From NCBI GenBank assembly GCA_964016885.1, contig CAXHJY010000460.1:1-24678 (forward strand): 24,678 nt of DNA, given 5' to 3'. Below, one piece after another: positions 23,797 to 24,678 of the stretch. The translations under genes and the position numbers were made by a program. The stretch comes from Eledone cirrhosa. Lineage: Eukaryota. The notes beneath the pieces were generated by a model. The model ran no database searches. It worked only from the letters and a program-made list of their open reading frames with translations, and was not told where the DNA came from. The first letter of the stretch is position 1. Each line of letters begins with the position of its first letter.

Positions 23797-23850
<54 letters not shown>

Positions 23851-23852
<2 letters not shown>

Positions 23853-24009
23853 AAAAAGTATGACCCCGACGGCAGAGCTCAGAAATAGCCGTCGAAACGG
23901 CTTGAGATCTGCCGTCGGGTCATACTTTTTCCTATTTCCCACTCTACTACCCTAAGTATTGAGTACTCTGGTGCGTTATGGTCCACCTGGTTCCTTACCA
24001 CAATTCCTT

Positions 24010-24040
<31 letters not shown>

Positions 24041-24222
24041 ACGAAGGAAATCTGGTAAGGAACCAGGTGGACCATAACGCACCAAAGTACTCAATACTTA
24101 GGGTAGTAGAGTGGGTAAAAGGAACGAGTAAGACCCAACGGCTGAGCTCAAGCCTTTCCGACGGCTAATTCTGAATTAGCTGTCGAAACGGCTTGAGCTC
24201 AGCCGTCGGGGTCCTACTCGTT

Positions 24223-24224
<2 letters not shown>
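23851..24224. mobile_element. Tail-to-tail pair of foldback mini-elements carrying hammerhead 3' halves, separated by (TA)n
   Basis: 23938-24013 is the reverse complement of 24039-24114 (4 mismatches). Internal hairpins at 23851-23881/23903-23932 and 24121-24171/24173-24224. GAAA-CGGCT-tgagctc-AGCCG-TC at 24185-24207 and GAAA-CGGC-ttgagatct-GCCG-TC at 23894-23916. Confidence 0.85.
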
Positions 24225-24259
<35 letters not shown>

Positions 24260-24383
24260 AGTAACAAGTTATCGTTAGGTAATCCAGTTAGAGGTTGTGA
24301 GTACTCTGGTCTTGGATAGTTTTAACATACGGCTTTGTTTAACTCAACAAGTTATACAGCCAACCATGTTACTCTTCATTCTT

Positions 24384-24445
<62 letters not shown>

Positions 24446-24555: not shown

Positions 24556-24678
24556 TTAATAAACACAGTGCTGAGTATAAGCTCAGTTCGATCTGTATCG
24601 ATCTAGCCCGACTCTATAACCAAATGCACGTCAGACCTCTTTGTTGGTAATGATGGAATTCCGCCATTACCTCCAAAG

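What the first reader, a model, noticed from the sequence alone, without database searches (positions are those of the whole stretch)
23851..24224. Nested double foldback with copy-specific paired substitutions
Two copies of a ~165-185 bp element lie tail-to-tail around (TA)n, and each begins with its own hairpin. Differences between the copies appear on both arms of each hairpin: ggaaaaag/ctttttcc versus ggaacgag/ctcgttcc, and ggcaga/tctgcc versus ggctga/tcagcc. Each carries a hammerhead 3' half (GAAA, a 5-6 bp stem III, GUC). The CUGAnGA half is replaced by an inverted copy of the downstream sequence. Inference: the inverted arm was templated from each copy during insertion (Penelope-type 5' inversion or snap-back priming). 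Selection on structure is the alternative. The whole unit could form long dsRNA or a cruciform.
Basis: partly seen in the sequence, partly recalled or inferred. Interest (0 to 1): 0.75.

Follow-up and report, generated by a model that had tools for sequence, protein, structure and literature searches.

The report
Two truncated Penelope-type retroelement ends
This double hairpin is two cut-short copies of a very common Penelope-type jumping gene lying tail to tail in a TA repeat; each hairpin likely formed when that copy was inserted, a pattern already published, so it is real but ordinary.

Summary
Real but ordinary. The two units are 5'-truncated, inverted copies of a Penelope-like retrotransposon (PLE) with Hydra-clade motifs. 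Exact 23-mers of the family occur 33,915 times in this genome; at least 62 full-length ORF copies are 99% identical, and the protein's best fold match is telomerase RT. Longer copies carry the missing hammerhead 5' half, as the known U3-A8 variant, not CUGAnGA. The paired substitutions are subfamily alleles, not copy-specific: recurrent alleles were mirrored 165 times and one-armed 39 times; private ones 8 and 73, which argues against selection on structure. Inversion centres vary (60 junctions in 69 copies) while both outer ends are fixed, 80 nt apart. The tail-to-tail pair is likely two separate insertions; about 56 similar pairs exist. Likely mechanism: both nicked strands of (TA)n prime cDNA at two fixed RNA sites and the cDNAs join head to head. 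The near-strict one-long/one-short rule (67 vs 2) is the only part of wider interest. This scan noted the same architecture before, on other DNA of this and other genomes.

The parts
23800..23850 (.). (TA)n target tract, left flank
23851..23881 (-). Copy A, inverted tail-less arm: 31 nt of the element end, starting at the fixed short start site (site 1); joined to the other arm over a 2-nt overlap
23880..23932 (+). Copy A, tail-bearing arm: element positions -54 to -1, truncated in hammerhead stem II
   Evidence: 89% to full element L061 over 135 nt with tail
23894..23916 (+). Hammerhead 3' half in copy A (GAAA, stem III, GUC); 5' half absent
23933..24012 (+). Copy A 80-nt tail, between site 1 and the long start site (site 2)
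24015..24040 (.). (TA)13 tract shared by the two insertions
24041..24120 (-). Copy B 80-nt tail
24121..24173 (-). Copy B, tail-bearing arm (-54 to -1); its hammerhead core letters are mutated
   Evidence: 93% to L061 over 135 nt with tail
24173..24224 (+). Copy B, inverted tail-less arm (52 nt, 1-nt overlap at the centre)
24185..24207 (+). Intact hammerhead 3' half on B's inverted arm; 5' half absent
24225..24257 (.). (TA)n target tract, right flank

Best explanation
The locus holds two 5'-truncated, inverted copies of a Penelope-like retrotransposon from two different subfamilies, likely inserted separately into one (TA)n tract, and each hairpin likely arose at insertion when both nicked target strands primed cDNA on the element RNA. 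Shown: family membership, a full element with RT-endonuclease ORF and a complete hammerhead fold, fixed outer ends 80 nt apart, variable centres, subfamily-concordant arms, one long and one short end per insertion. Inferred: the endonuclease nicks both strands of (TA)n; one 3' end primes at site 2 (giving the tail-bearing arm), the other at site 1 (giving the tail-less arm), each at a UAU that could pair with the TA primer; both use RNA of the same source element; both cDNAs usually stop 50-67 nt upstream of site 1, in hammerhead stem II, and are joined head to head through a short overlap or a few filler bases. The hammerhead 5' half is lost simply because synthesis stopped short of it. The stubs are likely inert. 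Odds: PLE origin about 0.97; two separate insertions 0.9; two-nick, two-site priming about 0.6.
For: Family size. Full element L061: 719-aa ORF between two repeats that contain the window sequence; model pLDDT 93, best PDB match telomerase TERT, E 2e-8; DKT, RWx, CxCx5C, CxxC-E-N-CxH motifs conserved 94-100% in 115 aligned proteins, matching the Hydra description (PMC8557442 section 11). Hammerhead three-way fold with UUGAGAA core. In 100 consecutive copies: tail ends at +80 before TA-like sequence in 86; 69 have a directly joined inverted arm with 60 different junctions; 102 of 138 arm ends lie at -50 to -67. Far end short in 67, long in 2, 11 unresolved, 20 without inverted arm. Arms share a recurrent haplotype in 57 of 62 units, 14.6 expected by chance. 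Either arm can be the longer. Arm length does not change with copy age (rho 0.00, n 66). Two RT start sites bounding the tail and cutting of both strands were shown in vitro for another PLE (PMC11167929).
Against: No insertion intermediate, empty allele or RNA was seen. Asymmetric arms could also come from deletions after insertion. Pfam found no family in the ORF and the PDB sequence search nothing below E 2; the endonuclease call rests on motifs, not on a separate fold match. No Hydra reference sequence was aligned, so the clade is assigned by motifs only; the tandem period (about 3.5 kb) exceeds the usual <3 kb. In vitro the Anolis PLE starts at sites not homologous to the target, unlike the UAU pairing proposed here. 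Five of 62 units, and window copy B, have arms of different haplotypes. The 100-copy sample comes from the first 21 Mb of one contig and is anchored on an exact 23-mer.
Confidence: 0.82

Rival explanations
1. Snap-back: one cDNA primed at the tail end folds back and copies itself to site 1, so the inverted arm is templated from the inserted copy.
For: Gives the same layout and explains arm concordance (57 of 62) and the one-tail rule. 33 of 69 junctions have a short overlap. Self-priming was proposed for PLE palindromes (PMC3846280, passages).
Against: The inverted arm reaches at least 15 nt further upstream than the tail arm in 13 of 69 copies, and by kilobases in L061, L062 and L064; it cannot be copied from a cDNA that lacks that sequence. 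It does not explain a fixed stop at site 1. PMC3846280 notes that head-to-head layout would need an antisense template.
Confidence: 0.15
2. The hairpin-plus-tail unit is itself a non-autonomous element (SINE-, MITE- or retrozyme-like) copied from a few short masters.
For: B's exact centre is shared by the top 40 hits, and unit lengths cluster at 104-116 nt.
Against: 60 different junctions in 69 copies; B's centre occurs on four stem haplotypes and with either central base, as expected of a recurrent junction; lengths run continuously up to full elements; units are not tandem arrays of complete hammerheads.
Confidence: 0.08
3. The hairpins are kept by selection or ongoing arm-to-arm conversion because the RNA or DNA structure has a function (dsRNA, cruciform).
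For: The whole 374-nt unit folds at -282 kcal/mol; 8 private variants are mirrored.
Against: 73 of 81 private variants are on one arm only, and 61 of 138 one-arm changes are C>T or G>A, as in neutral decay; A and B each carry unrepaired one-arm changes. The 8 mirrored ones can be rare source alleles.
Confidence: 0.04
4. Long-read foldback or assembly artefact on a small unplaced contig.
For: The window is a whole 24.7-kb contig; no contig of a public run spans the locus.
Against: Arms differ by mutations, A and B differ by 11%, ends are fixed at element-defined sites, and the same layouts occur on chromosome-scale contigs.
Confidence: 0.02

Closest known systems
Hydra-clade C-terminal-endonuclease Penelope-like elements (Craig et al. 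2021, PMC8557442; abstract, passages, sections 11 and 15 read)
   Same: Single ORF, DKT, RWx, CxCx5C linker, CxxC and CxH around E and N, (TA)n target, hammerhead in the pseudo-LTR, partial tandems, inverted 5'-truncated copy, one-sided tail.
   Different: Tail 80 nt rather than 30-40; unit about 3.5 kb; U3-A8 core with a long stem II and 5-6 bp stem III; most copies are 110-nt hairpin stubs; tens of thousands of copies.
Poseidon element PAc of Anolis (Frangieh et al. 2024, PMC11167929; parts 1-2 of 4 read)
   Same: Two RT start sites bound the tail; both target strands are cut and extended; AT-rich target; uncleaved RNA is the main template.
   Different: There both strands used the start sites alike and without target homology; here one end is long and one short almost always, and both sites sit at UAU.
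Adineta vaga Penelope insertions with inverted pLTR, tail and junction palindromes (PMC3846280; passages)
   Same: Head-to-head inverted repeats, optional tail on one side, palindromic junctions.
   Different: Those have target-site duplications and few copies; self-priming was proposed there.
PLE hammerheads including the U3-A8 core variant (Cervera and De la Pena 2014, PMC4209133; part 1 of 4 read)
   Same: Type I hammerhead in the PLE repeat, U3-A8 covariation, palindromic loop III, pairs on opposite strands, most copies single and truncated.
   Different: Stem III here is 5-6 bp, not minimal; the window copies lack the 5' half.
Metazoan non-LTR retrozymes (bioRxiv 10.64898/2026.07.22.740005; part 1 of 5 read)
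   Same: Non-coding, hammerhead-related, linked to PLE repeats.
   Different: Retrozymes are tandem repeats with complete hammerheads; these stubs are single, inverted and lack half the core.

Membership tests
Endonuclease-bearing Penelope-like element (parent family) | Single ORF with a telomerase-like RT | tested here: met
   719-aa ORF, YRDD 99-100% conserved; best fold match TERT; Pfam silent
Endonuclease-bearing Penelope-like element (parent family) | C-terminal GIY-YIG endonuclease | tested here: inconclusive
   YIG, downstream R, E and N conserved 97-100%; Pfam GIY-YIG passes only on one atypical homologue, P0001; no separate fold search of the domain
Endonuclease-bearing Penelope-like element (parent family) | Pseudo-LTRs from tandem or partial-tandem arrangement | tested here: met
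   repeat-ORF-repeat in L061; ORFs spaced about 3,530 nt in tandem
Endonuclease-bearing Penelope-like element (parent family) | Inverted 5'-truncated copy and one-sided tail | tested here: met
Hydra clade | DKT in place of DKG; RWK-type motif | tested here: met
   SDKTG and LRWR in the ORF; D98 K100 T94, R100 W98 K70
Hydra clade | CxCx5C linker; CxxC and CxH around E and N; no CCHH | tested here: met
   C572, C574, C580 100%; C670, C673 99%; E 98, N 98, C 98, H 97%; absence of CCHH judged by eye
Hydra clade | Insertion into (TA)n; hammerhead present | tested here: met
   (core is the U3-A8 variant)
Hydra clade | Generally under 3 kb | tested here: not met
   tandem period about 3.5 kb; the paper gives this as a tendency
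Hydra clade | RT phylogeny groups with Hydra references | not tested
   no reference sequence was fetched; the paper's supplements were not opened
Functional hammerhead ribozyme (window copies) | Both halves of the catalytic core with stems I-III | tested here: not met
   arms end at -54 or less; the 5' half lies at -101 to -95
Functional hammerhead ribozyme (full element) | Self-cleavage | not testable with these tools
   fold fits; Rfam gave no match; weak excess of copies starting at the predicted cut
Non-LTR retrozyme | Tandem units each with a complete type I hammerhead | tested here: not met
MITE / DNA transposon | Terminal inverted repeats at both ends, uniform interior | tested here: not met
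   one end carries an unpaired 80-nt tail; interiors vary and continue into an RT ORF

The most novel reading that the evidence does not exclude
This family records the Penelope insertion reaction at population scale: one ribonucleoprotein assigns its two target nicks to two different fixed RNA start sites (never at random), primes each through a 3-nt UAU match to (TA)n, copies the same RNA segment twice and usually stalls in its own hammerhead stem II; a minority of copies come from self-cleaved RNA. With dozens of 99% identical intact ORFs, it would make the open question of how PLE inversions and tails form directly testable.
Probability: 0.45. Interest if true: 0.55.

Novelty: new member of a known kind. 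Interest (0 to 1): 0.24.

Why it matters
As a locus it matters little: two likely inert stubs among tens of thousands. As a family it matters for annotation, because such stubs look like MITEs or miRNA precursors (only sub-threshold miRNA hits in Rfam) and seed tens of thousands of hairpins in this genome. PMC8557442 (section 15) names the formation of PLE inverted structures and the microsatellite bias as open; the fixed long/short rule, concordant arms and recently active ORFs give constraints and a ready substrate for that question.

Tried and rejected
Rfam on the window: only miRNA-type hits below gathering score among the 150 of 490 rows shown; on the full hammerhead: none. Tail-only DNA search blank because the words are too common. 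Pfam and PDB sequence searches of the ORF blank; single-sequence fold unusable, pLDDT 32. First regex for full hammerheads was mis-specified and gave 0; corrected. Idea that the 5' half was overwritten by quasi-palindrome repair: rejected, since centres vary and arms run on into upstream element sequence. Idea that the tail-less arm leads on the template and is longer: 13 vs 2 in short copies is biased by sampling, and long insertions go either way. Idea that arms come from two different RNAs: 5 of 62 discordant, four by one base, one mosaic; inconclusive. Trimming of palindromes with age: no trend. No RNA holder listed, so expression, small RNA and editing were not examined. Sequence look-up among earlier findings was blank. 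Paper searches: none of the PLE papers listed contains the phrase 'twin priming'; subscription journals and supplements were not seen. PMC13282606 (passages) gave nothing on these hairpins.

Full report
Observation. The sequence at 23851-24224 is as described: two related units, each a hairpin plus an 80-nt unpaired tail, lie tail to tail around (TA)13 with (TA)n outside. A and B are 89% identical over 135 nt.

It is a high-copy family. A DNA search of the own genome (3.0 Gb) gave 2,978 first-look candidates, of which 40 were scored. Exact patterns gave 12,703 matches for a 28-mer in the arm and 33,915 for a 23-mer at the arm-tail border, with none in reversed controls.

The parent element. 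Upstream of longer copies the sequence continues into a 3' region and an ORF. Locus L061 holds repeat-ORF-repeat with an inverted partial copy in front. The 719-aa protein had no Pfam or PDB sequence hit, but 2,054 of 7,996 scored candidates matched at E <= 1e-10. With 114 of them as alignment the model reached pLDDT 93, and its best PDB match was telomerase TERT, E 2e-8. DKT, RWx, CxCx5C, YIG and CxxC-E-N-CxH are conserved at 94-100% in their key residues, the features listed for the Hydra clade of Penelope-like elements, which insert into (TA)n (PMC8557442 section 11). No tree with Hydra references was built. All 62 scored genomic matches were full-length at 99-100% identity, some in tandems of about 3,530 nt. 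Window copies B and A match the element end at 93% and 89%.

The hammerhead. The full repeat folds as a three-way junction with stem I, an unpaired UUGAGAA, a long stem II, GAA, stem III and GUC (the folding energy is no better than shuffles, and Rfam gave no match). Of 54 regex matches across my loci, 16 were inverted arms or unrelated and were dropped; of the other 38 (overlapping loci may count twice) 29 read UUGAnAA, 5 CUGAGAA, 4 other, none CUGAnGA. U3-A8 is a published PLE variant (PMC4209133). The 5' half lies at -101 to -95 from site 1; the window arms reach only -54, so neither copy can be a ribozyme.

Anatomy of 100 consecutive copies. I took the 100 places listed (first 21 Mb of C1). 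The tail ends at +80 before TA-like sequence in 86. Sixty-nine have an inverted arm joined within 30 nt, with 60 different junctions: 33 overlap by a few bases, 11 are blunt, 25 have filler. 102 of 138 arm ends fall at -50 to -67, in the distal part of stem II. Eight of 100 reach 100 nt or more upstream. Both sites are followed by TAT in the element.

The paired substitutions. In 54 copies with both arms of at least 40 nt, alleles mirrored in two or more other copies were mirrored 165 times and one-armed 39 times; alleles mirrored in no other copy were mirrored 8 times and one-armed 73 times; a middle class gave 26 one-armed. So mirrored differences mark the source subfamily, and later mutations are not repaired or selected. 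In 62 of 110 units whose arms both carry a recurrent haplotype, 57 were concordant against 14.6 expected (this set includes loci selected for likeness to B). Five were discordant, as is B by one base; this does not decide between one and two RNA templates.

The outer foldback. A and B carry different linked alleles in stem, loop and tail. Tail-to-tail neighbours across 6-17 nt number 64 loci, 44 of the 50 listed with TA spacers; in 17 such loci that I fetched the partners mostly differ in subfamily or length (by eye). Tail-head and head-head pairs also occur. The nesting therefore likely comes from repeated use of the same target; the deficit of co-oriented pairs is unexplained. An empty allele was not found or sought further.

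Mechanism. Most likely both nicked strands of (TA)n prime cDNA on the element RNA, one at site 2 and one at site 1, and the two cDNAs are joined head to head. This follows from the fixed ends, the long/short rule, and arms of which either can be longer (13 of 69 inverted arms exceed the tail arm by 15 nt or more; kilobase cases both ways), together with the in vitro result that another PLE cuts both strands and starts at two sites bounding the tail (PMC11167929). Snap-back remains possible only if those asymmetric cases are later deletions; arm length shows no trend with age. Nicking, priming, stalling in stem II and joining are inferred, not shown. A weak excess of short copies starting at the predicted cleavage site (7-8 of 29) hints that cleaved RNA is sometimes copied.

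Known or new. Inverted 5'-truncated copies with a one-sided tail, (TA)n targeting and hammerheads are published PLE traits (PMC8557442; PMC3846280; PMC4209133). Earlier notes of this scan describe the same design in this and other genomes (unchecked AI notes, not counted as support). Verdict: a new member of a known kind, interest 0.24; the priming rule is the part worth an experiment.

Noticed in passing
window 2448 (-), 16602 (+), 18892 (-), 24552 (-), 5579 (+): Five further hammerhead-like motifs with the canonical CTGATGA and a downstream GAAA, probably stubs of other PLE or retrozyme families.
   Followed up: no
window 24259-24387 and 24570-24678: Other short non-simple segments beside (TA)n; the first shares a 13-mer with the tail, the second resembles a segment in L020 by eye.
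   Followed up: no
window 8638-14564: 5.9-kb G/T-skewed tandem array, period 35-41 nt, about 158 copies.
   Followed up: no
genome-wide: Neighbouring copies across 6-17 nt of TA: about 56 tail-tail, 36 tail-head, about 28 head-head (counted by eye). Random orientation predicts about 79 tail-head, so co-oriented neighbours are about half as common. 17 of 24 head-head pairs share the same haplotype on both sides. Unexplained.
   Followed up: partly
L084, L177-L224: Among 29 distinct short copies joined directly to (TA)n between -16 and -28, 7-8 begin at -17, the predicted hammerhead cut (p about 0.001 for 8 against uniform; G-run and T microhomology confound).
   Followed up: partly
L129 (G000:C1:13301130); also L006, L010 and window copy B: Arms carry different known haplotypes (3 bases in L129; the same single base in the other three).
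   Followed up: partly
L022 1877-1990, L020 100-200: Related but distinct TA-inserted elements with similar tails.
   Followed up: no
G000: At least 62 full-length ORF copies at 99% identity, several in tandems of about 3,530 nt: the family was recently active.
   Followed up: partly
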